A stretch of DNA of 64,000 bases. Origin: Protoeuglena noctilucae. Its lineage: Eukaryota. Each line of letters starts with the position of its first letter. Within the stretch, counting starts at the first letter, position 1. The notes beneath the pieces are model-generated. The model had not been told where the DNA came from. It saw only the letters and a list, made by a program, of their open reading frames with translations, and ran no database searches. Below are positions 21,594 to 33,200 of this stretch, piece by piece. The translations under genes and the position numbers were made by a program. The DNA is taken from contig OY253673.1 of assembly GCA_958009085.1 (NCBI GenBank), positions 372,001-436,000 of the forward strand, read 5' to 3'.

Positions 21594-21810
21594 AGATGAC
21601 CTTGGCCTATCACGCTGACGACCTTGGCCCATCACGCTGACGACCTTGGCCGAATGCGCTGACGACCTTCAACCGACGCTGTGGCGACCCTGGCCCTTTA
21701 ACGCTGACGACCTTGGCCCACCTCCCGCTCCGCGCACCCGCGCGCCTGATAACCGAGGCCTGCCCCCCGCTCACGCGCACCCGCGCGCCCTGATAACCGT
21801 GGCCTGCCTC
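21594..21810. repeat. Array of ~22-bp repeats (acgctgacgaccttggccc, ~6 copies) followed by two ~38-bp repeats
   Basis: Direct reading. The second unit cgcgcacccgcgcgcc(c)tgataaccgNggcctgcc occurs twice. Confidence 0.85.
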
Positions 21811-22973
21811 GCGCCCCCGTCGCCCCCCCAAACACCCGACACCCCTGTGTCGCCCAGCCCATGCCCACCCACACCACTCGTTGCCCCTTGTGTTACTCTC
21901 GCCGCCGCCGCTCGCTCTTGCCGCGCTGCCATCGCGCCCGCCCCCAAAAGCCCGCTGCCCTGCTGTGTGTCGTGCGAGGGGTCGCCCCCGCCAGCGCCAC
22001 CATGCCGGGCGCCAGCACCCCTCGCCATCCGTTGCTCTCCTGCAGGGCCTCCTCAGCAGACTCCCAAAGACAGGCCCTCCGGCCCCGCTTGCGCTCCCAC
22101 TCTCCCCGTCTCGTCGCAGCCACGCCGCTCTCTGATCCTGTGGCGCCTGGTCCGTTCTGCGCCACTGCCGGGTGTTCCCACGACATCCCCGGCGTTCCAC
22201 CCCACGGGCGCCATGTCTCTCGCCACTGTCTGAGCCCATCAACCCGTTGCTGCCAGCTCTGCCCCGACGTTTGTCCCCCGTCGCACCCTTTGCCAGCCCC
22301 CCCCAGCGGGGCTGGTCTCTCACGTTGGCTGGAGCACAGGCGACGCGCTGGCGACCCCCACGCGGACCCACCCGACCAGCGCCAGAGCCCCTGAAGGACC
22401 ACGGGCGGGGAGGCCACGCGGCACGCGCAGTACCGTGGGTGTGCGGGGCGCGCCGCAACGGCGACGGAGCAGACGCCCCACGGGTGAGCGCTGGCGGCTG
22501 TGGGACACCAAGGGCCTGCGAGGCATGGCTGCAAAGGGCTAGGGGTGAGGCAAGGGTGCGTGTGCGCGTCCGTCCAGGTCTGCGGTCGGGGAGAGGTGAC
22601 GGTGTGCGTGACGGAGGATGAGTGTCGGTGTGGGTCCTGACCTGCGGCTGGCAAAGAGGGTGGTCGTGGGAGGATGCGAGGAGGTCTGTGCGTGATTGGG
22701 GGAGGTCAGGAGGTGCAGATGCTGTGCTGGATCGGTGTGTGGTGCTTGGTGCGTGGGGAGTGATGCGCTGAGGGGTGCGAGTGCTCACCTGGGCATTAGC
22801 TGTGAGGAGAGGGTGCTGAGCCTTACCTGTGCAGCTAGGGGGGGAGTGCGTGGGGCAGGAGGGCTTGCGAAAAGGGCGAGTCTGGTTGGGCGTGTGAAGT
22901 GAGGTGTATGGGGGGGCGTGGTCCGTGAGAAGGGTGTGGCGTGGGGCTGGCAGGAGGAGGGGTGGGAGATGAT

Positions 22974-23081
22974 GCGTGCTGAGCAGGAAGGTGGTTTATG
23001 TGGGGGTCCATGTGGAAGAGGAGAGGGGCGTGCTGAGCAGGAAGGTGGTTTATGTGGGGGTCCATGTGGAAGAGGAGAGGG
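22974..23081. repeat. Perfect 54-bp tandem duplication
   Basis: gcgtgctgagcaggaaggtggtttatgtgggggtccatgtggaagaggagaggg at 22974 and 23028. Confidence 0.92.
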
Positions 23082-23905
23082 GGTTGAGAGGTGAACGTGT
23101 GTATGTCAGTGGTGATGCGCGGTGAGTGGGCAAGAGTGGTGCTGAGCGGCGAGATCGGGGGATGAGTGACGAGGGTGCGTGCAGAGAGTTAGAGGGCGTG
23201 TGTGGTCTGGTTGGAAGAGGCATCTACCTGTTAGCTGCGGGCATGGACGGGGAGGCGTGGCATGCGGGTGAGTGCTGCTGGGGCAGGGTGCGTGTGCAGT
23301 GAGATGTGGGGGGTGGAAAGTGTGCGTCATAGGAAGGCAGTGGGCTGGCTTAGGGACCTGGTGGGAGCAATGCGGTCGGGTGGATGTGGGAGTAATGCGG
23401 ATTGGGGTGGGGTGGCATGGCCGGCTGCGGGGAAAGTGTAGAGCAGGCGTGTGAGTAAAGCTGTCGAGTGTGCGTCCGAGAACCTGCGAGGCATGCGAGA
23501 GATGGAGCGTGGGTGCGCAGAAGCCCTTGGTGTCCCGAGCGCCGGCACCCTCCCCGTGAGGCGCCCGCCCTTGCCGCCACAGCGCGCCCCACGCCCCTGC
23601 AGCTGCGCGCGCATCGCGTGGACCCCCCCGCCCGCGGCCCCTCTCAGGCTCCGGCTCCGGCCAGGCAGCCCAGGGGGTCGCCGGTGGCGCCGCCGTGCGG
23701 TACTCCAGCCCATATCATCCTGGGTACAGGGGAGCTTGTTTTAGCCGGCAGACGGGCTCTTCCGTAGATGCTCAGTGTGGCCGTGGACGCCCCAGTTGGC
23801 CGGGGCGCCGATGCCGGAACGAGCAGCCCGAAGGCCACCCGTCCGGCGCCGGCGCCCCGGCCCGAATGTCGTGGGGTGATGGCGTGCTGCGAATGAAGAG
23901 GCCCC

Positions 23906-26900
23906 TCAGGGGAGTAGCGGCTCGACGGCTGCCCATGTGGGCGCAGTGTAGGTGAAGGTGGACCTCGCCGGGTCTCTTGGGTGTAAGAGGGCGTCGTCAG
24001 GGTGCGTGCAGCGCGCGAGGGCCCACCCGCCCCGGTACGCCGCCAGAGCGACGAGCTCCTCGGCCATGATGCGCGTCATCTGCGCGAACAGCTGTGCCGG
24101 GGACGCGTCCGCCCCCGCGTCCTCCGTCAGCTGCTGCCGCCTGCGCCAGATGACCTGCACGGTCGCCCCCGCCACGACCGCCCACGTGAGCGGCCCCAAC
24201 CGCGCGCCCTCCGGCACGCGCAGCAGGAAGAGGGCCGACGGGCGGAGGGGCGCCCCCTGCGCCCCCCCCGCCCACGCCACGATGCCCCTTGCCACGCGCC
24301 ACACCTCCCGCGCGCGCGAGCACTCCCAGAACGCGTGGGCCGCGCTGTCCTTTCCCATGCACGCCTCCCCCTCCGTCGTCAGCAGCGGGCACTCGTCCCG
24401 CTCCGCCCAGTACATCCTGTCCTGCGTGGCCCACCCGTCCGCCAGCGTCAGCCACAGCCGCTCGTGCAGGGCGTCCGACAGCGGCAGTCCGTTGAGCGCC
24501 ACCAGCGTGCGCCTCAATCCCTCTCCCGTTATGCCGTGTCCCTCCCCCAGCGCCGCCGCCCAGCCCTCCGCCTTGCGCTCCAGCCGCTGCCGGATCGCCG
24601 CCCTGTCACACGTCGTCCTCGCCGCCTCCCGCACCGTGTAGGAGGCCAGGTCCAGCGCCGCCTTGGAGGCGACGCCGGGGTCCAGTGCCCAGCCCGGCGC
24701 GGTGGCCGTCATGGGCCGGTAGAAGTCGTTGGCCTCCCCGCCGCCCGGGGAGGCAAGTCGCAGGCGCTCCATGAAACCCTCCGTGAGCGCCAGCCCGTCC
24801 CACGGGTCCCATTGCCCCTCCACGTCTGGCCGGGCATACTCGTTGCCCGGCCCAAGGAGGCCCAGGTCCCGCATAAAAGCCCCAACCACCCAGCCGAGGC
24901 CCCTCCGATCCACCCCCGGCAGCCGATCATAGCCCAGCGCGAACGCCCAGGAGACCCACGTGTCCCATCGCCGCGCCGGGTCCCGCATGCAGAGATAATG
25001 CCCCACAGTTCCGAAACCCCGTAACGCCATCGCCCTCCCCACCGGGTGCAGGAGGAGGGGCCGGCCGCCCCCCGCCGGCCGCCCAGCACCCCCCTCGTCG
25101 ATCCCATCATCCGAATTGTCGTCGCCCGACGCGCCGTCGTGCACCCACGCCCCACCAGCCCTCCCATGGGCGCCCGTCGCGAAGCTGTGGAGCGATGAGG
25201 CCGAATCGTCTTGGTCCTGTCCCATGTCGTTGTGGAGGGGGCCAGCTGCCCCCTCCATCGCCGGCGCCCCCAGGGCTGCCACCCCCGCGCCCGGGCCGCC
25301 CCCGCCGGCGGCACAGAGGACCCCCGGGGTGAGAAGCGACGCGCAGAGTAGATCCCCCTTTGTAGTCCCAGTGACGGGGGTGAAGAAGTCCGTAGAAGAG
25401 GCGAAACGCGAGCCGTCCGTGCCCGCCAGGCCCCCGCCGCCCACGCGCGCCCCCCGCCAGCCATGCCCGTCCATGGCCACGTTGGACAGGCGGTCCGCCA
25501 GGGCGTTCTGCTCCCGTGGCACGTGCTCCCAAGTGATGTCGAGGCCCGCCGCGAGCCTCTGCGCCTCGGTCCACAGCGGCACCAGCGCCGGGTGCCGCAG
25601 CGCCGAGCAGTCCCGCGGATCCATGGCGCGGATGACGAGGAGGGAATCCCCCCGGACGCGGAGCTTGGTGGCGCCGAGCTCGACTGCCGCGCGTAGCCCT
25701 CCCAAAAGCGCGGCGAACTCGGCCTGGTTGTTGGAGGCCCCGCGCACGGCGGGGCCCGCGAGCTCCAGCGTCTCCACCCCCTCGCCTTCCCCGGCCGCCA
25801 GCACCGCCCCCGCGCCAGCCGTGGACGTGTCGGAACCGTTGCCCCGCGAGACCCCGTCGAAGTTGAGCGTCAGCCGGCCCTCCGCCGCCAGGTTGGTCCA
25901 GCGCTGCTGGGCGACCTCGTCCGTCGTGGGTGCCAGAGGTGGCGGCGCGTGCACGGGCCCGAGGGTCGCGCGCAGGGACCCGAGGCCCTTGATGGCGTCG
26001 CAGATGCTCTCGAGCGCCGGTAGCTTGCCCCGCAGGCGGCGGGACTCGATCAACTGCGCCACGTGGCAACCGTCCGTCTCGGGCAGTGAGAAGGGCAGCA
26101 GGCCCAGCCGGCCTGCCCCGAGCCCCTCCAGGCACGCCGTGAGGATGCCAGCGAGACCGCCCAACTGGCCGTGAGCGCCCACGCGCTTCGTGATGAGGGC
26201 GCGCGCCAGGTGCCGGAGCCGCCGCGCCGCCGTGTGCGCGTCCAGCGGGAGGGCGCCCAGCCCCCCCTCCTCCGGCGGGGCGGTCAGCATGATGCGGCCC
26301 ACACGGAACCACACCTGCCCCGCCGATCGTGCGTTGAGGACATAGCGCTCCTGGACCCTCCGCAGGTCAGCGACGCACGAGTGGTCGGCGGCGGGGGACA
26401 TCTCCAGGTGGTACCCCGCGAGCGAGGTGATGTAGGCGTTGGCGACGCGCGCCCGACCCCGGATCGGCAGCCCCAGCGATGACGCCGCGTCCGCGCGGCG
26501 CAGGGCCTCCCCCAGCCGCCCGGGCCACACCAGCGCCGCCTGCTCTCTCGTCTGCGCCCCCAGCAGCCGCACGCCCCCCGGCTCCACCCCCCACGGGCAG
26601 CCCTGCGCGGCGGCCTTGGCCTCCTGCCGCTTGTTGATGCGTCCCAGTCGGTAGAGCTTCGTCTTGGTCTGGCTCGCCTTCAGCCCGGACACACGGTGGA
26701 AGTCCCGCAGCACCTCGGCCAGCTCCCGCCACGGGTCGAGTTGGTTCCTGTCGCGCCCCACGAGCCGTTGGAGCAGCACGTTGAAGTCGTCGGCGAAGGC
26801 CAGCAGCGTCTCGGCCCTGCCGCCCGTCGTCCGGATGCCGAGCACGCGGTCGCACCGCGGGCCGCCCGGCAGCTGCACCGGCTCCTGGCCCCACGCCCGC

Positions 26901-29476
26901 AGCCTCTCTGCGAGGGGCTCCACCGCCAGCACGAAGATGAGCGGGCTCAGGGGGCATCCCTGCTTGACGCCCCGGTTGAGCGGGAACGGCTCCCCCGCCG
27001 CCCCGTTGAGGACCAGGCTCGCCCGGCTGTCGCTCTGCAGCGCCACCGCCGCCTTGACAAAACGCGGCGGGAGCCCTCCCCACGCCATCGCGTCCGCAGC
27101 CCACCCCCGGAAGGCCGTGTCGTACGCCTGTTTGAAGTCCACCAGCACCGCCCACGCCGACTGCCGCCGGATGCGCATGAGCTCGTCGAGCAGATGCAGC
27201 GAGAAGATGGCCGTCCCAATGTCACGCCCGGGGACGAAACCCAACTGGTCCTCGTGCACGAGCTGCGGCAGCACCCGCAGCAGCCGCGCCGTCAGCACCT
27301 TGGCCGAAGACTTGTAGAGGACGGACAGTAGGGAGATGGGGCGGTACCGCCGCCAGTCCGTCCGCGAGCCGCCCTTGTGGATGAGCGTGATGGCGGCGTC
27401 CGCGAGGCGGCCGTCGTGCCCCTCGCCGCGGAGGAGCTTGTTGACGAAGTAGGCGACCACCCGCTCGACACCCGCCTCGGTCCCGGTGCCCTGGCACGCC
27501 TTCAGCAGCGCCGGGGAGATGCCGTCCGCGCCACCGCAGCTGTCGCCCCGTAGACCCTGTATCGCCTCCGCCGCCTCCGCCCGTGTCACGTCTGCCTCGA
27601 GAGCGGCCCTCGCCTCCTCCGACAGCGGCGACCGCGGGTTGCGCAGGAAGTTAGCGCGTGCCCTCTCATGTTGGCCGTCCGCGGAGGCAGGGGGCGCGGC
27701 AGGGGCGTAGAGCTGGGCCATGTTGGTCTGCAGGTCCCGCGCGAGGTCGTCCGTGACGCCCTCGACCCGCCGCCGCCACTTGAAATGGGCCGTGATCCGC
27801 CGACTCGGCACGGCCCCGAAGACCCGCAGAAAGTGCTTCGCCCGCTCGCTCTGCCACTGGACCTCCTGCTGCTCCAGCACCGTCAGCTGGCGCTGCAGGT
27901 CCAGCATCCGGTCCCAGTCCTCCGTCGCGTTCGTCCGCTGCGCCCTCCTCTCTGCCCGTCCCAGTTGCTTCTCCAGACGCCTCCGCTCCCCGTCCCGCCG
28001 CCGCCGCACCACCAGGTTGATCGCCTCCGCGCGGTGCCGGATGACCTTGGCCACTCGCACCGACGTGCACCCCGGCCCGTCCGCCGGTAAGTCCCTCCAC
28101 ACACCCCGCCGGAATCGCTCGGCCTCATGGCTCCCCGGCGCCCAGAGCGGCCGGACCTGCCGCAGCGGGTTGCGCCCCGCGGCCCTGTCTGCCCGCCGCC
28201 GTAGCGTCAGGACGAGCGCCTTGTGGTCCAGCCCGGGCACGAAGCGCGCCGCCAGCGTCGCCGGGTACCGGACCAGCAGGGCCGGGCGCGCCAGGCAGCG
28301 GTCAATGCGCGCCGCCGGCGTCGCTGCCCCCTCCGCTCGCGCCCCGAACCACGTGTAGGTGTCCCGGCGCAGCCCCAGCTGCACGTGCACGTCCGCCAGC
28401 CCCTGCGGCCCCGTCACGTTCTCCGCCCAGTGGATGACCTTGGCCAGGTCGTCGTGGTAGCGCCGGGACGCCCGCTCGAGCGGGTGACCCGACGTGCAGT
28501 TGAAGTCCCCGACGACGATCGTCTCCCTGTGCGCCTGGCGAGGCGGCATCAGATGCCGCAGCCGCGCAGTGAAGTCCCTGTGCGCTGCCGCCCCCCCGGA
28601 CGCCGGCGCGTAGACCCCCACCACCGTGAAGCGCCGGTCGGCCCATGCGAGGTCGGCTGCGCACGCCCGCCCCGCCAGCCCTTCCACGTCCGCCCCGCGC
28701 CGCTTCGGCGCGCCCGCCACCGACTCCCGATGTACCAGCACCCCCACGCCCCCCGGGCCGCCGTTCTCGTCCAGCGACCAGTGGCAGAAGTATTGGGGGA
28801 AGAATCCCGACGCCACCGCCTCCTGCCCCGCCCGCATCTTGACCTCCTGTAGAACCACCACGTCCGCCCGCAGCCTCCGCACCAGCCGCCGCACCGTCGC
28901 CCGCTTGCCCGCCATGGCCCCGCTCGACAGCCCCCGCACGTTGACGCTGACGACCCGCAGGTCGTCGGGCGCGAGGTCCCGCGCCGCGCTCCGCCTTCCC
29001 CGTCGCCGTGGCCCGCGCGCCGGCACCGCGGCCGGCGCCATCCGCGGCGGCGGCGGCGGCGGGGGCAGATTCCCCAACGGCGGCAGCGGGATGGGTGGGA
29101 GCGCGCCGATACGCGCTCCCGGCGCCTCCCCAACCTCCGACCCTTGCGCTCCCGAGCTTCGAACGCCTCCAGACCGACTCTCCCCGCTCCCCCGGCCTCG
29201 CAGACCGCTCCCGCCCCCCCTTCTCCTCGCGCCGCCATGCTGCCCCAGCGCGCCCCCGCGCCGCGCACCCGCGCCCGCTCCGCCTCCTCCGCCCCCCGTA
29301 GACCCTCCTGCGATATCTTCTGAACCTTCTGCATGCAAAAGACCCGACGCCGGCCCCGCCCCGCCACCGCGCGGGCCCCGAACGCTCGAGCTAACAACAC
29401 CATCTGATCGGGCCGCCCCCGTCGCCGCATCCCCCTCCCGCCGGCCTCCCGGCCCATCCATGCTACAGATCGTCAT
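23906..29476 (-). CDS. Retrotransposon polyprotein: AP endonuclease + reverse transcriptase + RNase HI + CCHC zinc knuckle (intronless, ~1850 aa)
   Basis: APE: SVNVRGL, LQEVK, VGDFN, RIDR, DHK. RT: YRPISLL, DFKQAYD, GVKQGCPLSP, AFADD. RNase H: NFDGVSRGN, NNQAEF, GDS, HVPREQNALAD. Knuckle: CPLL...C...HAFWEC. First ATG at 29476; alternative at 29041. Confidence 0.96.
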   Translation of the reverse strand: MTICSMDGPGGRREGDAATGAARSDGVVSSSVRGPRGGGAGPASGLLHAEGSEDIAGGSTGGGGGGAGAGARRGGALGQHGGARRRGGGSGLRGRGSGESRSGGVRSSGAQGSEVGEAPGARIGALPPIPLPPLGNLPPPPPPPRMAPAAVPARGPRRRGRRSAARDLAPDDLRVVSVNVRGLSSGAMAGKRATVRRLVRRLRADVVVLQEVKMRAGQEAVASGFFPQYFCHWSLDENGGPGGVGVLVHRESVAGAPKRRGADVEGLAGRACAADLAWADRRFTVVGVYAPASGGAAAHRDFTARLRHLMPPRQAHRETIVVGDFNCTSGHPLERASRRYHDDLAKVIHWAENVTGPQGLADVHVQLGLRRDTYTWFGARAEGAATPAARIDRCLARPALLVRYPATLAARFVPGLDHKALVLTLRRRADRAAGRNPLRQVRPLWAPGSHEAERFRRGVWRDLPADGPGCTSVRVAKVIRHRAEAINLVVRRRRDGERRRLEKQLGRAERRAQRTNATEDWDRMLDLQRQLTVLEQQEVQWQSERAKHFLRVFGAVPSRRITAHFKWRRRVEGVTDDLARDLQTNMAQLYAPAAPPASADGQHERARANFLRNPRSPLSEEARAALEADVTRAEAAEAIQGLRGDSCGGADGISPALLKACQGTGTEAGVERVVAYFVNKLLRGEGHDGRLADAAITLIHKGGSRTDWRRYRPISLLSVLYKSSAKVLTARLLRVLPQLVHEDQLGFVPGRDIGTAIFSLHLLDELMRIRRQSAWAVLVDFKQAYDTAFRGWAADAMAWGGLPPRFVKAAVALQSDSRASLVLNGAAGEPFPLNRGVKQGCPLSPLIFVLAVEPLAERLRAWGQEPVQLPGGPRCDRVLGIRTTGGRAETLLAFADDFNVLLQRLVGRDRNQLDPWRELAEVLRDFHRVSGLKASQTKTKLYRLGRINKRQEAKAAAQGCPWGVEPGGVRLLGAQTREQAALVWPGRLGEALRRADAASSLGLPIRGRARVANAYITSLAGYHLEMSPAADHSCVADLRRVQERYVLNARSAGQVWFRVGRIMLTAPPEEGGLGALPLDAHTAARRLRHLARALITKRVGAHGQLGGLAGILTACLEGLGAGRLGLLPFSLPETDGCHVAQLIESRRLRGKLPALESICDAIKGLGSLRATLGPVHAPPPLAPTTDEVAQQRWTNLAAEGRLTLNFDGVSRGNGSDTSTAGAGAVLAAGEGEGVETLELAGPAVRGASNNQAEFAALLGGLRAAVELGATKLRVRGDSLLVIRAMDPRDCSALRHPALVPLWTEAQRLAAGLDITWEHVPREQNALADRLSNVAMDGHGWRGARVGGGGLAGTDGSRFASSTDFFTPVTGTTKGDLLCASLLTPGVLCAAGGGGPGAGVAALGAPAMEGAAGPLHNDMGQDQDDSASSLHSFATGAHGRAGGAWVHDGASGDDNSDDGIDEGGAGRPAGGGRPLLLHPVGRAMALRGFGTVGHYLCMRDPARRWDTWVSWAFALGYDRLPGVDRRGLGWVVGAFMRDLGLLGPGNEYARPDVEGQWDPWDGLALTEGFMERLRLASPGGGEANDFYRPMTATAPGWALDPGVASKAALDLASYTVREAARTTCDRAAIRQRLERKAEGWAAALGEGHGITGEGLRRTLVALNGLPLSDALHERLWLTLADGWATQDRMYWAERDECPLLTTEGEACMGKDSAAHAFWECSRAREVWRVARGIVAWAGGAQGAPLRPSALFLLRVPEGARLGPLTWAVVAGATVQVIWRRRQQLTEDAGADASPAQLFAQMTRIMAEELVALAAYRGGWALARCTHPDDALLHPRDPARSTFTYTAPTWAAVEPLLP

Positions 29477-29884
29477 TTTACCGCACGCTGCCAAGCGCGC
29501 GGCGCCTCGCAAGCCCCCCTCGGCTCCGGGGCGCGGCTCGTCCCGAGCCAACGAGACCGAGCGGCTGTGCCTTCACCTGGCGCCTGCCAGGGGTTTTGCG
29601 AACTCGCCTCCTGCCTAGAGAGTCGCGATGCACATGACCGTTCCGCCGCACCCCTCGCCACCCTCCCGCTCGCGCTACGCCGACGGCCTACCTGATGATG
29701 ATGAGCGATGATGATCCCGCGCGCCTAATCCGATGATGAAAGCGAAAGCCCCCCCTGGGCGGGCCAGCGCGTCGACTATTGAGGCGAAACGCGAGGCGTC
29801 GAGAGGCGTGATGCGAGCCGTCGACGGATCGGAAAAAGGTCACTAAACACTTCTCCACAACGATCACGCCATTTAGACCTCCGC

Positions 29885-29894
29885 AAAACAAAAA
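29885..29894 (-). terminator. Pol III oligo-T terminator of tRNA-Leu
   Basis: Minus strand TTTTTGTTTT begins 9 nt after the tRNA 3' end. Confidence 0.7.
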
Positions 29895-29902
29895 GGCACT
29901 TG

Positions 29903-29986
29903 TAGCAGTGGTGGGGTTCGAACCCACGCGCACTTTCGTGCAGATGCTCTTAAGGCACCCTCCTTGAACCACTCGGACACACTGCC
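29903..29986 (-). tRNA. trnL-UAA: tRNA-Leu(UAA), intronless, long variable arm
   Basis: GGCAGTG-TGTCCGAGTGGTTCAAGGAG-GGTGC CT TAA GA GCATC-TGCACGAAAGTGCG-CGTGGGTTCGAACCCCAC-CACTGCTA. A and B boxes, acceptor stem and an AT-rich element ~30 nt upstream are all present. Confidence 0.95.
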
Positions 29987-30253
29987 ACGGAGGCAAGTAT
30001 GGGTAAACCCCCGTGTATAGATATCAATACACCTGCGGGGCATGACACGCCCGCTCTGGCACCGCCCTAACGCCTCCCAGCGGTCCCAAGCCGCCCAACC
30101 GCCCCCCGCCTTGGTCAGAACTTTACATTTCGCTCCCCGAGTCACAACCGGAGCCCGGGGACGCCCTGGATATCCGCGCCTCGCCGCGCCTCGCCGTTTC
30201 CCCCGCCCCGCGCCGCCGCCCGCCGGGCCCTGAGAGCGCCGCGCTAGAGGAAG

Positions 30254-33200
30254 ATGGCGTCGCGTTTCTGGGCGGCCGCCTCGTCCTCGGAGGAAGAGAG
30301 CTCGGAGAAGAGCGAGTCGAGCGAGGTGGGGGGAGGGACGCTGCGCGCGCCGGCAATGCCCCAGCGTAGGTTCGAGGCCACGGGACCCCAGCGGCAGCGC
30401 CGGCGCCCCGGCGGATCCGCGCGCCACGCCCCGCCCGCAGTGGGGCTCGGAGGGGTCCGAGTCCGAGTCCGATGACTCCTCCAAATCGTCTTCCGAGAGC
30501 TCTTCGTCGGGGTCCTCGTCCGAGGTGGGGCCGGATCCGCGCGCAGGGGGCGCGCCCGGTGCCCGGGGGCCCCCGCGAACGTGGCGGTGGCTGCTGCGCC
30601 GCGTGCCGTCCCCGGGGGCCGCCTCCCGCCCGCGCGGGCGCTGACTGGGCTTCCTCATGTCATCGCAGAACGCGAGGAACAAGTTCTTGGCCGGGGGCGA
30701 TTCGGACTGGGACTCGGACGACTCGGACGCCCGGGGCGGCAAGCGCACCGTCCGCTCGGGCCGGGACAAAATCCTCTCGGCCATCTCCGACGTCGCGGAC
30801 GCGATCGACGATGCCGTGGATGCCGGGGAGTGGACGGTCGTGCTTGACAAGGTCGACGACCTCTTCCAGGCCGCCGACAAGTGGGTCACCCTCACGTCGG
30901 GACCCACGCGCAAGGGCCGCGTCCCGAACGCCTTCGTGCGCGCCCTCGTGGAGCTCGAGGACGGCGTCGAGAAGCAGTTCGCGGAGGAGAACAAGGAGGA
31001 GCTCAAGAAGCTGAACAAGGCGAGACGCGCAAGCTGCGCGCGCCACCGCCGAGGCGCAGGCCCCGGCGCCCCGGCCCGCGACGCGCCCTTCCGGCCCGTG
31101 CTCCGCAGACGAACGCGAAGGCGCTCAACACCCTGCGCCAGCGCCTGCGGAAGGCCGTGCAGGTGGACGACCTGCCCGAGCTGATGAAGCGGTGCCGCGC
31201 CGACCCCGGGGACTTCCTGGAGGAGGACGAGGAGGCGGACGAGGGCGGCGCGGAGGCGGACCGGGCCGCGGAACCGGAGAAGGACTCGATCTTTTCGATG
31301 GACCCCAAGGACATCACGTTCAAGGTCGTGAACGAGAAGCTGCAGGAGGCGCGGCTGCAGCGGGGGCGCAAGGGCGTGTCGCGGCAGGACCAGCTCAACC
31401 TCCTCCTCTTCCTGCGCCGCCACGCCAAGGGCCAGGCGCAGGAGGTGGCCGTTGTCCTGGCGCTCATCAGCCTCATGTTTGACCTCCTGCCCGCCACCGC
31501 CACGCACCTCCCCGCGGCCCTCTGGCGCCGCTCGGTGCTCTACCTCTCCCACGTCCTCGACGTCGTCGAGACGTCCGGGTCCGTCGTCGTGGACGAGCTC
31601 GCCGTGTCGTTCGACGAGGCCACCGACGAGCCCGACGCCGCCGCGGGGCCCGTGCGCGTGCCGGGCAACCTGGTGGGCCTCGTGGAGCGCCTCGACGAGG
31701 AGCTCTTTAAGTGCCTCCAGCACACGGACCCCCACACCAACGAGTACCTCTCGCGGCTCAAGGACGAGGCCGTGCTGCTCGCCGTGGCCCAGCGCGTGTC
31801 CAAGTACCTGGAGAGCCGGGGCGACACGGCCGGCGTGGCGCGCGTGGCCCTGCGGCGCATCGAGCACTACTACTTCAAGACGGACGCGGTCTTCGAGGCG
31901 CTGCGGCGGACAGCGCAGGAGCCCATCGCCATCACCATGAAGGACGCCGAGACGCGGCTCTCCTTTGCCATGGAGCGCGAGGGCGCCGAGATGCCGGTCG
32001 AGGACGACGGCGCGGAGGAGGCGGAGGCGCCGCCCGTCGAGGAGGCCGTCGCGCGGATGGTGAGCGGCTTGTGGCGGGCGCGGAGAGTCGTGGGCGCGGA
32101 GTTGCCTCATAGCCCACCAAGCCTTGGGTCACGCGGTGCGGTCGCCGTCTCTGCCAGCGGGCGATTCGGCGTGGACGCGTACGCTGGGGTGGTCCTAACC
32201 GTGGCGCGCTCAACTCCTCCCGGCGCCCCCCCGACCCCCGCAGACGCTTCGGCTGGACATCTCGCGTGACGAGACGCTGACGGACGTGGTCAAGAGCCTG
32301 GCGCAGGTCATCTACCGCCACGGCGACGAGCGCTCCAAGACCCGCGCGCTCCTCTGCTCCGTCTACCACCTCTCCCTGCGCGGGGCCTTCTACCAGGCGC
32401 GGGACACGCTCCTCATGTCTCACCTCCAGGAGAGCGTGACGAACATGGACATCCAAACGCAGATCCTGTTCAACCGCGCCATGGCCATGTTCGGCATCTG
32501 CAAATTCAAGGCCGGCCTCATCCAGGAGTCGTACAACTGCATGGCGGAGCTCTACGGGTCGGGGCACGCCAAGGAGCTCCTGGCCCAGGGCCTCATCCAG
32601 TCCAAGACGCCGGAGAAGACGCAGGAGCAGGAGGCGCTGGAGCGGCGCAGGCAGATGCCCTTCCACATGCACATCAACCTGGAGCTCATGGAGGTGAGGG
32701 CGGGAGCCGTGGCGGGCGGCACAGATGAAGCGCGTGCATGCGGCTGGCGTCTCAGCGTTCGCCTGTCCCTGTCTGGCCTTGTTTGATCTCGTCGCGTTCT
32801 AATTATCCGCAGACGGTTCACCTGTCTTGCTGCCTGGTGCTGGACCTGCCCCAGCTGGTGCGGGGTGGCCGCGCCGCCATGCAGTCGCTGCCCTTCAAGC
32901 GTCTGATGGACAACCAGGCCAAGGCCTCGTTCATCGGCCCGCCCGAGACGGTCCGCGACCACATCATGGCCGGCGCGCGGGCGCTGCTGCAGGGCGACTG
33001 GGAGCTGGCCATGTCATATGTGTCGGCCTTAAAGGCGTGGGACCTGCTGCCCCAGAAGGCCAATGCCATGGAGATGCTGCGCGAGCAGCTCAAGAAGACG
33101 GCGCTCAAGGCGAGTCTCGGGGTCTATGTTTCTTGGGGCATAGCTGTGGCACAGGTGGGGGTCTGTGTTGACGGCCGGTGACGAGGGAGAAGCGTGCCGA

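What the first reader, a model, noticed from the sequence alone, without database searches (positions are those of the whole stretch)
24320..25875. RNase HI inserted between RT and the zinc knuckle
Seen: a complete RNase HI (D in NFDGVSRGN, E in NNQAEF, D in GDS, HVPREQNALAD; ~25875-25470) sits mid C-terminal region. It is followed by a Gly/Asp-rich linker and only then the CCHC knuckle (~24392-24320). Established: most L1s lack RNase H, and land-plant Ta11-type L1s carry an archaeal-like RNase H at the extreme C-terminus after the knuckle. Inference: an independent capture of a cellular archaeal/actinobacterial-like RNase HI in an algal L1/Tx1 lineage.
Basis: partly seen in the sequence, partly recalled or inferred. 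Interest (0 to 1): 0.72.

Follow-up and report, generated by a model that had tools for sequence, protein, structure and literature searches.

The report
LINE retrotransposon with an internal RNase H
This is an intact, recently active L1-like jumping gene from a marine, GC-rich eukaryote. Its bacterial/archaeal-type RNase H sits in the middle of the C-terminal region instead of at the very end as in plant and oomycete L1s, which is one more variant on a known theme.

Summary
Window 23906-29551 (minus) is one 1881-aa ORF: APE endonuclease, RT, an RVT_3 (archaeal-type) RNase HI at nt 25466-25876, then an L1-type CCHC at nt 24320-24391. The RNase H keeps D-E-D-D plus the diagnostic Arg.

One correction: only 133 of the 358 residues between RNase H and knuckle are a Gly/Ala/Asp-rich linker. 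The other ~225 match the usual pre-knuckle region of L1-like ORF2.

Profile mapping shows a clean RNase H+linker insertion about 160-185 columns after the RT palm.

The family is multi-copy and young, with copies 97-99% identical. Among the listed database relatives, only P0027 shares the RT-RNH-CCHC order, at about the same site. The 17 RNase H-bearing rows of the RT tree, and a further one (P0022), have the plant/oomycete order.

- These 17 form their own RT clade.
- 15 of the 16 in the careful RNase H tree form an RNase H clade that excludes this element.
- AU tests cannot reject sister relationships.

"Independent capture" is therefore plausible but unproven. The donor is unresolved: the domain is bacterial-type, not specifically archaeal or actinobacterial, and it could have come from another LINE. 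RNH-before-knuckle order is normal in I-group LINEs.

Verdict: a new variant of a known kind, of moderate interest.

The parts
23906..29551 (-). Single long ORF (1881 aa from the first in-frame start; stop codon included). The likely real start is M171 at nt 29041, giving 1711 aa.
   Evidence: ORF listed. A database copy, P0014, has 1711 aa, and the consensus of the six aligned copies starts at M171. The first 170 aa are G/A/R/P-rich.
28256..28948 (-). APE-type endonuclease (aa 202-432)
   Evidence: Pfam Exo_endo_phos 3.5e-16; TIGR00633 xth 4.7e-12.
26648..27355 (-). Reverse transcriptase fingers/palm (aa 733-968)
   Evidence: Pfam RVT_1 1.3e-23. The best solved relative is human LINE-1 ORF2p: by sequence 1.3e-28, by fold Z 24.4 with 411 residues aligned.
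25967..26551 (-). Thumb plus helical wrist-like region before the RNase H (aa 1001-1195)
   Evidence: hhalign maps aa 1027-1195 to columns 9-161 of a 422-column profile of 40 RNase H-less relatives (98.1%, E 1e-13). The AF2 model shows helices with block pLDDT mostly 70-95.
25466..25876 (-). RNase HI domain, archaeal/RVT_3 type (aa 1226-1362). Catalytic D1232, E1278, D1302, D1353, and R1346 in place of the E. coli-type His.
   Evidence: Rv2228c 1.2e-18; Halobacterium 4.1e-14. Invariant columns. Pfam/NCBIfam envelopes. Fold Z 20.4/20.2/19.7 against 3hst, 4e19 and 3aly. pLDDT 80-96.
25067..25465 (-). Low-complexity Gly/Ala/Asp/Ser-rich linker (aa 1363-1495)
   Evidence: Composition. pLDDT is under 50 from model residue 665. 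No Pfam hit.
24392..25066 (-). Pre-knuckle C-terminal region homologous to that of ordinary L1-like ORF2 (aa 1496-1720)
   Evidence: hhalign of aa 1496-1880 against the relatives' C-terminal profile: 96.6%, E 5e-10. aa 1496-1764 map to profile columns 180-412, 94.9%.
24320..24391 (-). CCHC zinc knuckle, CX9CX7HX4C (aa 1721-1744)
   Evidence: Located. It aligns with the C..C..H..C of all 49 RT-bearing relatives printed. Pfam zf-RVT itself was not hit.
23909..24319 (-). C-terminal tail after the knuckle (aa 1745-1881)
   Evidence: Included in the hhalign match to the relatives' tails. Helical, with pLDDT about 75-89.
29552..29601 (-). Approximate 5' end of the repeat unit (near 29601)
   Evidence: Contig depth falls 4-20 fold beyond about 29650, and two contigs of the DNA run diverge at 29601 (tables 2 and 7).
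22300..23905 (-). 3' untranslated part of the repeat (its end was not found). It contains a 54-bp tandem duplication at 22974-23082.
   Evidence: Repeat-level depth continues to the left edge of the stretch laid, 22300. All four runs hold a single-unit form (table 5).

Best explanation
The finding lies inside the single polyprotein gene of a young, multi-copy, APE-type LINE of the L1-like kind. The domain order is APE - RT - thumb/wrist-like helices - RNase HI - disordered linker - pre-knuckle region - CCHC - tail.

The RNase HI is a complete bacterial/archaeal-type (RVT_3) domain. Together with its 133-aa linker it was inserted cleanly at an inter-domain site about 160-185 residues after the RT palm. 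The rest of the ORF2 stays collinear with RNase H-less relatives.

Inferred function: during target-primed reverse transcription the element's own RNase H degrades the RNA of the RNA:DNA hybrid that leaves the polymerase. Second-strand synthesis then would not depend on host RNase H. Its place behind the thumb/wrist mimics the polymerase-connection-RNase H layout of retroviral RTs.

Inferred history: the domain was acquired separately from the C-terminal aRNH of plant/oomycete-type L1s. One other database element (P0027) has the same layout at about the same site, so this is a small lineage or a repeatedly used permissive site.

Shown: the domains, catalytic residues, fold, insertion site, multi-copy status and rarity of the order among listed relatives. 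Inferred: activity, role in TPRT and independence of the acquisition.
For: Architecture.

Active-site residues lie on invariant columns.

Fold: the RNase H superposes on Rv2228c, Halobacterium and S. tokodaii RNase HI at Z 19.7-20.4, rmsd 1.4-1.6 A. The RT superposes on human L1 ORF2p at Z 24.4 (Foldseek).

Clean insertion: aa 1027-1195 map to profile columns 9-161 and aa 1496-1764 to columns 180-412. In P0027 the pre-RNH part maps to columns 19-185. P0001 and P0027 align in one collinear 657-aa HSP from RT through RNase H (30% id, E 3e-46).

Real and multi-copy:
- The 90%-identity cluster has 49 members.
- Aligned copies are 97-99% identical, including a full-length 1711-aa copy with 23/24 identities in the knuckle.
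- Contig depth over the element is 4-20 times the flank.
- Contigs span both RNase H junctions.

Rarity: of 128 RT rows, 17 are RT-CCHC-RNH, 63 are RT-CCHC without RNase H, 45 are partial, 1 is chimeric, and 2 are RT-RNH-CCHC (this element and P0027).

Separate clades: RT-CCHC-RNH elements form one RT clade (SH-aLRT 100). 15 of their 16 RNases H form one clade at 97/83 that excludes this element. P0027's closest RT relative, P0135, has no RNase H.

Mechanistic context, from passages of Baldwin et al. 2023 (PMC10830420):
- Human ORF2p has no RNase H and recruits RNase H2 through PCNA.
- The wrist binds the downstream template.
- Retroviral linker/RNase H occupy a position like the wrist.
Against: No activity or expression was shown. 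The element is in contigs of RNA libraries, but at about the same element-to-flank ratio as in the DNA run, and no spliced host transcript was seen as a control.

AU tests do not reject this element as sister of the RT-CCHC-RNH clade (p 0.41 and 0.36). The RNase H data fit the two constraints about equally well, P0001+P0027 alone and P0001+P0027 joined to the 16 C-terminal RNases H. Both constrained trees were about 31-32 lnL better than the quick free tree.

In the RT tree P0001 and P0027 are not sisters. P0001 is unresolved and P0027 pairs with an RNase H-less element.

The RNase H groups (93/61) and shares a 3-residue insertion with the C-terminal RNase H of another LINE, P0022. This fits LINE-to-LINE transfer as well as cellular capture.

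The model's linker and pre-knuckle parts are low-confidence, so the position of the RNase H relative to the RT in three dimensions is not known.

Only the best 150 of 32,684 hits were listed. Repbase and Dfam could not be searched.
Confidence: 0.62

Rival explanations
1. The RNase H was not captured from a cellular gene. It was moved in from another LINE that carries a related RNase H at its C-terminus, for example by template switching or recombination between co-resident elements. Equivalently, the domain was relocated within an aRNH-bearing L1 lineage from after the knuckle to before it.
For: P0001's RNase H groups with the RNases H of P0022 (UFBoot 93 / SH-aLRT 61). Of the 20 sequences aligned, only these share a 3-residue insertion after the RxN motif. 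P0022 is an RT-CCHC(855)-RNH(1064-1202) element. AU tests do not reject P0001 as sister of the RT-CCHC-RNH clade. The RNase H data fit one clade of all LINE RNases H as well as they fit the alternative.
Against: The C-terminal motif HVPREQNALADRLSNVAMD is nearly the bacterial consensus. It is unlike the H..R..N..AD motifs of the large C-terminal L1 clade. Identity is 44-46% to stand-alone proteins against 37-41% to P0022. The join with P0022 is between long branches and its SH-aLRT is low.
Confidence: 0.2
2. The RT-RNH-CCHC order is ancestral for APE-type LINEs, as in I-group clades and Dualen/RandI. On this reading the lineage simply kept it while most L1s lost the RNase H, and nothing was captured.
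For: Passages of Ustyantsev 2017 say that in other RNase H-bearing non-LTR elements the CCHC lies downstream of the RNase H. [quoted passage not shown] An earlier, unchecked note of this scan describes a Naegleria LINE with APE-RT-RNase H-CCHC near L1/Tx1. The insertion site is shared by P0001 and P0027, which are not RT sisters.
Against: The domain is RVT_3 type with Arg, and gives no PF00075 hit at E up to 1. It is 44-46% identical to stand-alone bacterial-type proteins, which is high for a domain inherited since the origin of APE LINEs. 63 of the 128 RT rows have a CCHC and no RNase H, including P0027's sister P0135. The RNase H comes with an unconserved low-complexity linker.
Confidence: 0.1
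3. The arrangement is an artefact: an assembly chimera, or a cellular RNase H gene or fragment that landed in one LINE copy.
For: Only one copy is in the window, and no genome is held for it.
Against: The same reading frame with the RNase H is found in five other predicted proteins, 97-99% identical up to the point where one of them (P0015) diverges within the RNase H. These come from other contigs. Contigs of four runs from three studies (table 1) cover it, and several span the junctions: X9 25313-27544, X1 25603-27992, X10 25197-25834. P0027 has the same order at 30% identity.
Confidence: 0.03

Closest known systems
Ta11-type plant L1 and oomycete L1 with archaeal-like RNase H (aRNH). Known from Smyshlyaev et al. 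2013, which was not held and is known only through citations, and from Ustyantsev et al. 2017, PMC5348765, of which passages were read.
   Same: An APE-RT LINE of the L1 kind with a CCHC. It carries an added RVT_3/aRNH-type RNase H with the D-E-D-R-D pattern, and is an example of modular domain gain.
   Different: In those elements the aRNH is at the extreme C-terminus, after the CCHC. Here it lies about 360 aa before the CCHC, inserted after the thumb/wrist-like region and followed by a disordered linker. The RT and RNase H of the C-terminal type form clades that exclude this element.
I-group LINEs (I, Tad1, Loa, R1, Ingi, Nimb) and Dualen/RandI
   Same: The domain order, with RNase H between RT and the CCHC (passage).
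   Different: The RNase H here is RVT_3 type, with no PF00075 hit. The APE-RT and C-terminal region match L1-like relatives, four of which carry Pfam zf-RVT. No restriction-like endonuclease follows the knuckle. Relationship to these clades could not be tested with named sequences.
Oomycete Utopia (Kojima and Jurka 2015, PMC4640811; passages read)
   Same: A further case of a non-LTR element that gained an archaeal-type RNase H at an unusual position.
   Different: Utopia is an RLE-type element with the RNase H upstream of RT. One such protein, P0170, turned up here.
Human LINE-1 ORF2p (PDB 8c8j, 8sxt, 9hdo)
   Same: The closest solved structure for the APE-RT core: sequence E 1.3e-28 and fold Z 24.4. 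The C-terminal CCHC is of the same kind.
   Different: Human ORF2p has no RNase H and relies on host RNase H2 (passage). The element here has no ORF1 that I could find, and has the inserted RNase H and linker.
Rv2228c N-terminal RNase H domain, Halobacterium RNase H1, Sulfolobus tokodaii RNase HI
   Same: The closest solved folds for the domain: 43%, 38% and 31% identity, Z 19.7-20.4, rmsd 1.4-1.6 A.
   Different: Those are cellular enzymes, stand-alone or fused to a phosphatase. Here the domain is embedded in a LINE polyprotein and has a 3-residue insertion after the RxN motif.

Membership tests
L1-like (L1 group) APE-type LINE | N-terminal APE endonuclease followed by RT in one ORF | tested here: met
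   Pfam Exo_endo_phos at aa 202-432 and RVT_1 at aa 733-968.
L1-like (L1 group) APE-type LINE | RT groups with L1/Tx1 rather than with other clades in a tree with named references | not testable with these tools
   No named LINE references were available. The nearest solved protein is human L1 ORF2p, but among the solved non-LTR proteins that matched only L1 and R2 appeared. In the tree of unnamed relatives the element sits on an unresolved deep branch.
L1-like (L1 group) APE-type LINE | C-terminal CCHC (zf-RVT-like) motif | tested here: inconclusive
   The motif CX9CX7HX4C aligns with the CCHC of all 49 RT-bearing relatives printed, and the C-terminal region matches their profile at 96.6%. 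Four of the 34 relatives scanned carry Pfam zf-RVT. Pfam zf-RVT itself does not hit this protein, even at E up to 10.
L1-like (L1 group) APE-type LINE | ORF1 upstream and a poly(A) or simple-repeat 3' tail | tested here: inconclusive
   The repeat's 5' end lies about 50 nt upstream of the ORF, which leaves no room for an ORF1. The 3' end was not reached, and no A-rich tail was seen down to 22300.
Archaeal-like type 1 RNase H (aRNH, Pfam RVT_3) | Pfam RVT_3 above the gathering score | tested here: met
   48.0 bits against a cut-off of 21.6, E 1.4e-12.
Archaeal-like type 1 RNase H (aRNH, Pfam RVT_3) | Catalytic D-E-D-D, with Arg in place of the His of E. coli-type enzymes | tested here: met
   D1232, E1278, D1302, R1346 and D1353 lie on invariant columns. 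The H/R criterion is taken from passages.
Archaeal-like type 1 RNase H (aRNH, Pfam RVT_3) | RNase H fold | tested here: met
   AF2 pLDDT 80-96 over the domain. Z 20.4, rmsd 1.4 A, 129 of 131 residues against 3hst_D.
Ta11-type / oomycete aRNH-bearing L1 | aRNH at the C-terminal end of ORF2, downstream of the CCHC | tested here: not met
   The RNase H is at aa 1226-1362 and the CCHC at aa 1721-1744.
Ta11-type / oomycete aRNH-bearing L1 | RT and RNase H inside the clades formed by such elements | tested here: inconclusive
   The element is outside the RT clade (SH-aLRT 100) and outside the RNase H clade (97/83) of unnamed elements with that order. A sister position is not rejected (p 0.41).
I-group LINEs | RNase H between RT and CCHC | tested here: met
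   The domain order is shown. The feature itself is taken from a passage.
I-group LINEs | RNase H of the type shared by non-LTR elements (PF00075-like), and RT within the I group | tested here: inconclusive
   There is no PF00075 hit at E up to 1. The nearest RNase H relatives are bacterial-type RVT_3 proteins. The RT relationship could not be tested without named references.
Dualen/RandI | Restriction-like endonuclease after the CCHC | tested here: not met
   Only 137 aa follow the knuckle. They give no relevant Pfam hit and align with the tails of L1-like relatives.
Proto1 (a Repbase clade reported to carry RNase H) | RT within Proto1, and Proto1's domain order | not testable with these tools
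   Only the statement that Proto1 has an RNase H was seen. The defining paper, PMC2829327, is not held, and Repbase is not available.

The most novel reading that the evidence does not exclude
This family and P0027 represent an undescribed L1-like lineage, or two lineages using the same permissive site. It gained a bacterial-type RNase HI inside the thumb/wrist-to-CTD region, separately from the plant and oomycete L1 acquisitions. That would add a further independent aRNH capture by L1-like LINEs, and the first one that reproduces the retroviral polymerase-then-RNase H topology within an L1 ORF2.
Probability: 0.45. Interest if true: 0.5.

Novelty: new variant of a known kind. Interest (0 to 1): 0.4.

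Why it matters
Most L1s have no RNase H and depend on the host enzyme. Repeated gains of an archaeal-type RNase H by plant and oomycete retroelements are the standard example of modular, convergent evolution in retrotransposons.

An L1-like element with the same kind of domain at a different, internal site would add another data point. The site is clean, is shared by a second distant element, and is followed by a flexible linker. It would show that the thumb/wrist-to-CTD boundary of ORF2 tolerates a whole extra enzyme.

It would also give a natural construct for asking how an in-cis RNase H changes target-primed reverse transcription. It does not open a new class of system.

Tried and rejected
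- **Window's genome.** None is held, so copy number, target-site duplications and a host cellular aRNH could not be examined.
- **Word-index searches with the RNase H-to-end region.** The search with this element's region gave its own family and one C-terminal-RNase H element. The search with P0027's region gave P0027 itself, two RNase H fusions and one Utopia-like element. Neither found a further RT-RNH-CCHC member.
- **P0071.** It looked like a second case by spacing, but it has its CCHC at aa 602, before the RNase H at 701-828.
- **Genome-contig scans.** The single domain found nothing. A 7-row alignment worked but used the single pattern ADRLSNVA[MI], so the bacterial taxa returned are biased.
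- **Metagenome-contig scans.** A 30-nt exact pattern gave 0 matches and P0027 as query gave 0 relatives. The 3' end and more copies could not be fetched.
- **Large AU test.** The test on the 128-row RT set did not finish. It was replaced by a 45-row subset that I chose.
- **MAFFT alignment A4.** It misaligns the relatives' pre-knuckle region onto the RNase H, so the insertion site was mapped with hhalign instead.
- **Quick RNase H tree.** It was about 31-32 lnL worse than the constrained trees, so its topology is not relied on. The careful tree is used, though its bootstrap had not fully settled.
- **Expression.** The RNA-library contigs cover the element, but this does not show transcription.
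- **Host phylum.** The Atlas hits for eIF3c point to Ascomycota, Haptophyta and Streptophyta clusters alike.
- **tRNA targeting.** The single tRNA-Leu upstream is one case only and was not pursued.
- **Papers not held.** Smyshlyaev 2013 (PMC3864347) and Kapitonov 2009 (PMC2829327).
- **Literature searches.** Searches listed no paper whose title or abstract start describes an L1-like element with an aRNH upstream of the knuckle; I read passages of seven papers (Ustyantsev 2017; Ivancevic 2016, PMC5203782; Baldwin 2023; the Candida albicans non-LTR review, PMC3956500; Kojima and Jurka 2015; and the two Repbase papers, PMC5753468 and PMC4455052). The library lacks most subscription papers and Repbase Reports.
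Full report
**What is there**

The finding lies inside one uninterrupted 1881-aa ORF on the minus strand, at 23906-29551. Pfam gives three domains:
- Exo_endo_phos at aa 202-432
- RVT_1 at aa 733-968
- RVT_3 at aa 1238-1358, scoring 48 bits against a cut-off of 21.6

NCBIfam RNase HI models cover aa 1226-1362. The best is the actinobacterial bifunctional RNase H/phosphatase model at 8e-26, followed by haloarchaeal and Thermoproteota models.

The four carboxylates (D1232, E1278, D1302, D1353) and R1346 fall on invariant columns of alignments with stand-alone RNase H proteins. Passages give an Arg at this position as the mark of archaeal-like RNase H.

By sequence, the nearest solved proteins are the Rv2228c RNase H domain (1.2e-18), Halobacterium RNase H1 (4.1e-14) and Sulfolobus tokodaii RNase HI (8.5e-10).

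An AlphaFold2 model of aa 700-1881 was built with a 65-row alignment (mean pLDDT 67). It gives the RNase H block pLDDT 80-96. The domain superposes on those three structures at Z 20.4, 20.2 and 19.7 with rmsd 1.4-1.6 A (Foldseek).

**Correction to the anatomy**

The 358 residues between RNase H and knuckle are not all linker.
- Residues 1363-1495 are low-complexity (G 25%, A 16%, D 10%, S 8%).
- In the model, pLDDT stays under 50 from this linker on, through about aa 1648 (model residues 665-949), partly because few alignment rows cover that stretch.
- Residues 1496-1880 match a profile of the C-terminal 411-residue window of 40 RNase H-less relatives (hhalign 96.6%, E 5e-10).

I then mapped the element onto a 422-column profile of those relatives, running from the end of the palm to just past the CCHC.
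- aa 1027-1195 cover columns 9-161 (98.1%).
- aa 1496-1764 cover columns 180-412 (94.9%).

RNase H plus linker (about aa 1196-1495) is therefore a clean insertion into an otherwise collinear ORF2. It lies about 160-185 residues after the palm and about 235 columns before the knuckle.

The knuckle aligns with the CCHC of all 49 RT-bearing relatives printed from alignment A4. Pfam's zf-RVT model does not hit it. An ESM Atlas look-up of the C-terminal 519 aa gave zf-RVT-bearing clusters for 27 of 30 hits, which is a lead only.

**It is a real, young, multi-copy element**
- The window holds one copy.
- The 90%-identity cluster of a database copy has 49 members.
- Five aligned copies are 97-99% identical through the RT and the thumb/wrist region. 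Four of them remain so through the RNase H and as far as they extend, while P0015 diverges within the RNase H.
- One full-length 1711-aa copy starts at M171 and has 23 of 24 identities in the knuckle.
- Public runs hold the stretch: marine metagenomes, marine metatranscriptomes and a coded organism A.
- When contigs of four runs were laid on 22300-32300, depth over 22300-29650 was about 4-20 times that of the flank.
- Two DNA contigs diverge at 29601, the likely 5' end.
- Contigs span both RNase H junctions, for example X9 at 25313-27544.
- RNA-library contigs cover the element, but at an element-to-flank ratio like that of the DNA run, so transcription is not shown.
- The 3' end was not reached. 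No A-rich tail was seen.
- No ORF1 fits between the 5' end and the ORF.

The APE-RT core is nearest to human LINE-1 ORF2p, both by sequence (1.3e-28, against 3.5e-10 for R2) and by fold (Z 24.4, 411 residues). Because only L1 and R2 appeared among the matching solved non-LTR proteins, I call the element 'L1-like'. That is not a clade assignment.

**Relatives and domain order**

An exhaustive HMMER search with aa 700-1881 found 32,684 proteins at E up to 0.001, and the best 150 were listed. I mapped domains on these with local profiles and a CCHC pattern and ran Pfam on 34 of them.

128 proteins had a usable RT start. The rest of the 150, plus three added proteins, were dropped as too partial. 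The 128 divide as follows:

| Architecture | Rows |
|---|---|
| RT-CCHC without RNase H | 63 |
| Partial | 45 |
| RT-CCHC-RNH (the plant/oomycete order) | 17 |
| Chimeric gene model | 1 |
| RT-RNH-CCHC (this element and P0027) | 2 |

P0027 is a 1054-aa N-terminally cut protein from a 4.4-kb contig. It aligns with this element in one collinear 657-aa HSP from RT through RNase H (30% identity, E 3e-46). Its pre-RNase H part maps to profile columns 19-185, which is about the same insertion site. P0071 looked similar by spacing but has its knuckle before the RNase H. Word-index searches with the C-terminal halves of both proteins found no further member.

**Phylogeny**

RT tree (128 rows, quick, LG+G4):
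- The 17 RT-CCHC-RNH elements fall in one clade (SH-aLRT 100).
- This element sits alone on an unresolved deep branch.
- P0027 pairs (99) with P0135, an APE-RT-CCHC element with no detectable RNase H.

AU tests on a 45-row subset that I chose do not reject any of these groupings:

| Constraint | p-AU |
|---|---|
| P0001+P0027+P0135 as a clade | 0.455 |
| P0001 with the 13 RT-CCHC-RNH rows | 0.409 |
| All 16 together | 0.363 |

For the RNase H, I used a careful tree of 57 rows. The rows were the two RT-RNH-CCHC elements, 16 C-terminal L1 RNases H, one Utopia-like RNase H, 8 from multi-RNase H proteins, 19 stand-alone proteins and 11 of the 80 bacterial loci. Near-identical copies of the family had already been dropped when the rows were first collected.
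- 15 of the 16 C-terminal L1 RNases H form one clade (UFBoot 97 / SH-aLRT 83) that excludes both RT-RNH-CCHC elements.
- This element joins the RNases H of P0022 (93/61).
- P0027 is unresolved.
- The bootstrap had not fully settled.

Constrained searches showed that the earlier quick tree was suboptimal. They also showed that the data fit 'P0001+P0027' and 'P0001+P0027+16 C-terminal' about equally well.

The trees are therefore compatible with a separate acquisition and give it modest support. They do not prove it.

**Where the RNase H came from**

Stand-alone proteins of 85-273 aa are 32-46% identical over most of the domain, apart from one short local match (29 proteins at E up to 1e-5 among 2782 candidates). 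One carries a name, from a Pseudomonadota MAG.

A scan of prokaryote genomes used the single pattern ADRLSNVA[MI], so its taxa are biased. It returned 237 confirmed relatives out of 244 stretches. The 80 kept are mostly Chloroflexota (Limnocylindria), Acidobacteriota and Patescibacteria, with one Actinomycetales, at 35-46% identity.

The motif HVPREQNALADRLSNVAMD is almost the bacterial consensus. It is shared nearly exactly by P0027, and it differs from the H..R..N..AD motifs of the C-terminal L1 clade. 'Bacterial/archaeal RVT_3 type, donor unresolved' is the fair description. 'Archaeal/actinobacterial' is not shown.

One complication remains. Of the 20 sequences aligned, only this element and P0022 share a 3-residue insertion after the RxN motif. 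P0022 is an RT-CCHC-RNH element preceded by fragments of other copies. Transfer of the domain between LINEs therefore remains a serious rival to capture from a cellular gene.

**Mechanism (inferred)**

Passages of Baldwin et al. 2023 (PMC10830420) state three things:
- Human ORF2p lacks an RNase H and recruits RNase H2 through PCNA.
- Its wrist domain, which lies between thumb and CTD, binds the downstream template.

An intact RNase H placed after the thumb/wrist-like helices and tethered by a flexible 133-aa linker is well placed to cut the RNA of the hybrid that leaves the polymerase during target-primed reverse transcription. This would free the first-strand cDNA for second-strand synthesis without host RNase H. 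Nothing here tests that activity.

**Comparison with what is known**

Passages of Ustyantsev et al. 2017 make three relevant statements:
- A screen of Repbase 20.08 found aRNH only in elements of higher plants and oomycetes.
- In both L1 groups the CCHC is upstream of a C-terminal aRNH.
- In other RNase H-bearing non-LTR elements the CCHC is downstream of the RNase H.

[quoted passage not shown] They also describe Utopia, with an archaeal-type RNase H upstream of RT.

The order seen here is therefore ordinary for LINEs in general. It is unusual only in combination with an L1-like backbone and an RVT_3-type domain.

I could not check Proto1's layout, nor Smyshlyaev 2013. Both papers are not held, and Repbase and Dfam are not available. 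My literature searches listed no paper whose title or abstract start describes this layout for an aRNH in an L1-like element; I read passages of seven papers (Ustyantsev 2017; Ivancevic 2016, PMC5203782; Baldwin 2023; the Candida albicans non-LTR review, PMC3956500; Kojima and Jurka 2015; and the two Repbase papers, PMC5753468 and PMC4455052).

**Host**

The window is 62-74% GC. It carries an eIF3c gene next to the element and occurs in marine samples. The phylum was not established, so 'algal' is plausible but untested.

**Verdict**

This is a new variant of a known kind, the modular gain of an archaeal-type RNase H by a LINE. It is moderately interesting, chiefly for the clean internal insertion site that a second, distant element shares.

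Noticed in passing
window 29902-29986 (-): A tRNA-Leu(TAA) gene lies on the same strand, about 300 bp upstream of the element's apparent 5' end (near 29601). It is the only tRNA in the 64-kb window. This is a single case, so no claim of tRNA targeting is made.
   Followed up: no
window about 30657-32270 (+): A host gene for translation initiation factor eIF3 subunit C (eIF-3c_N), apparently with introns, lies directly beside the element. The long minus-strand ORF at 29873-32110 is its antisense shadow.
   Followed up: partly
window 22974-23082: A perfect 54-bp tandem duplication lies in the element's 3' untranslated part. Contigs of all four runs laid hold a form with a single unit.
   Followed up: partly
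window 22300-23905 (-): Repeat-level contig depth continues at least 1.6 kb past the stop codon, to the edge of the stretch laid. Either the 3' UTR is long or another repeat abuts it. No poly(A) or simple-repeat tail was seen. Arrays with 22- and 44-bp units lie at 21598-21808.
   Followed up: partly
window 29042-29551 (-): The frame is open for 170 codons upstream of the likely start, M171. These encode a Gly/Ala/Arg/Pro-rich stretch (G 28%, R 12%). At 72% GC this may be chance, or it may be an RGG-like N-terminal extension.
   Followed up: no
protein P0022 (database hit): A predicted protein with the order RNase H - RNase H - partial RT - CCHC - RNase H. It is probably head-to-tail or nested copies of an RT-CCHC-RNH LINE. 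Its RNases H share a 3-residue insertion with this element's RNase H.
   Followed up: partly
protein P0170 (database hit): An element with the RNase H at the N-terminus, then RT, then a CCHC followed by a long C-terminal region. This is the layout described for oomycete Utopia.
   Followed up: no
proteins P0103, P0132, P0155 (database hits): Proteins with two tandem RVT_3 RNase H domains and no RT. P0155 also has an RNase H1 N-terminal hybrid-binding (Cauli_VI) domain. They may be cellular or domesticated double RNases H.
   Followed up: no
window 24375-24376 and 25254: The window's copy differs from the form in all four runs at two adjacent bases inside the knuckle codons. A minority of contigs lack one base at 25254, which indicates frameshifted copies.
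   Followed up: no
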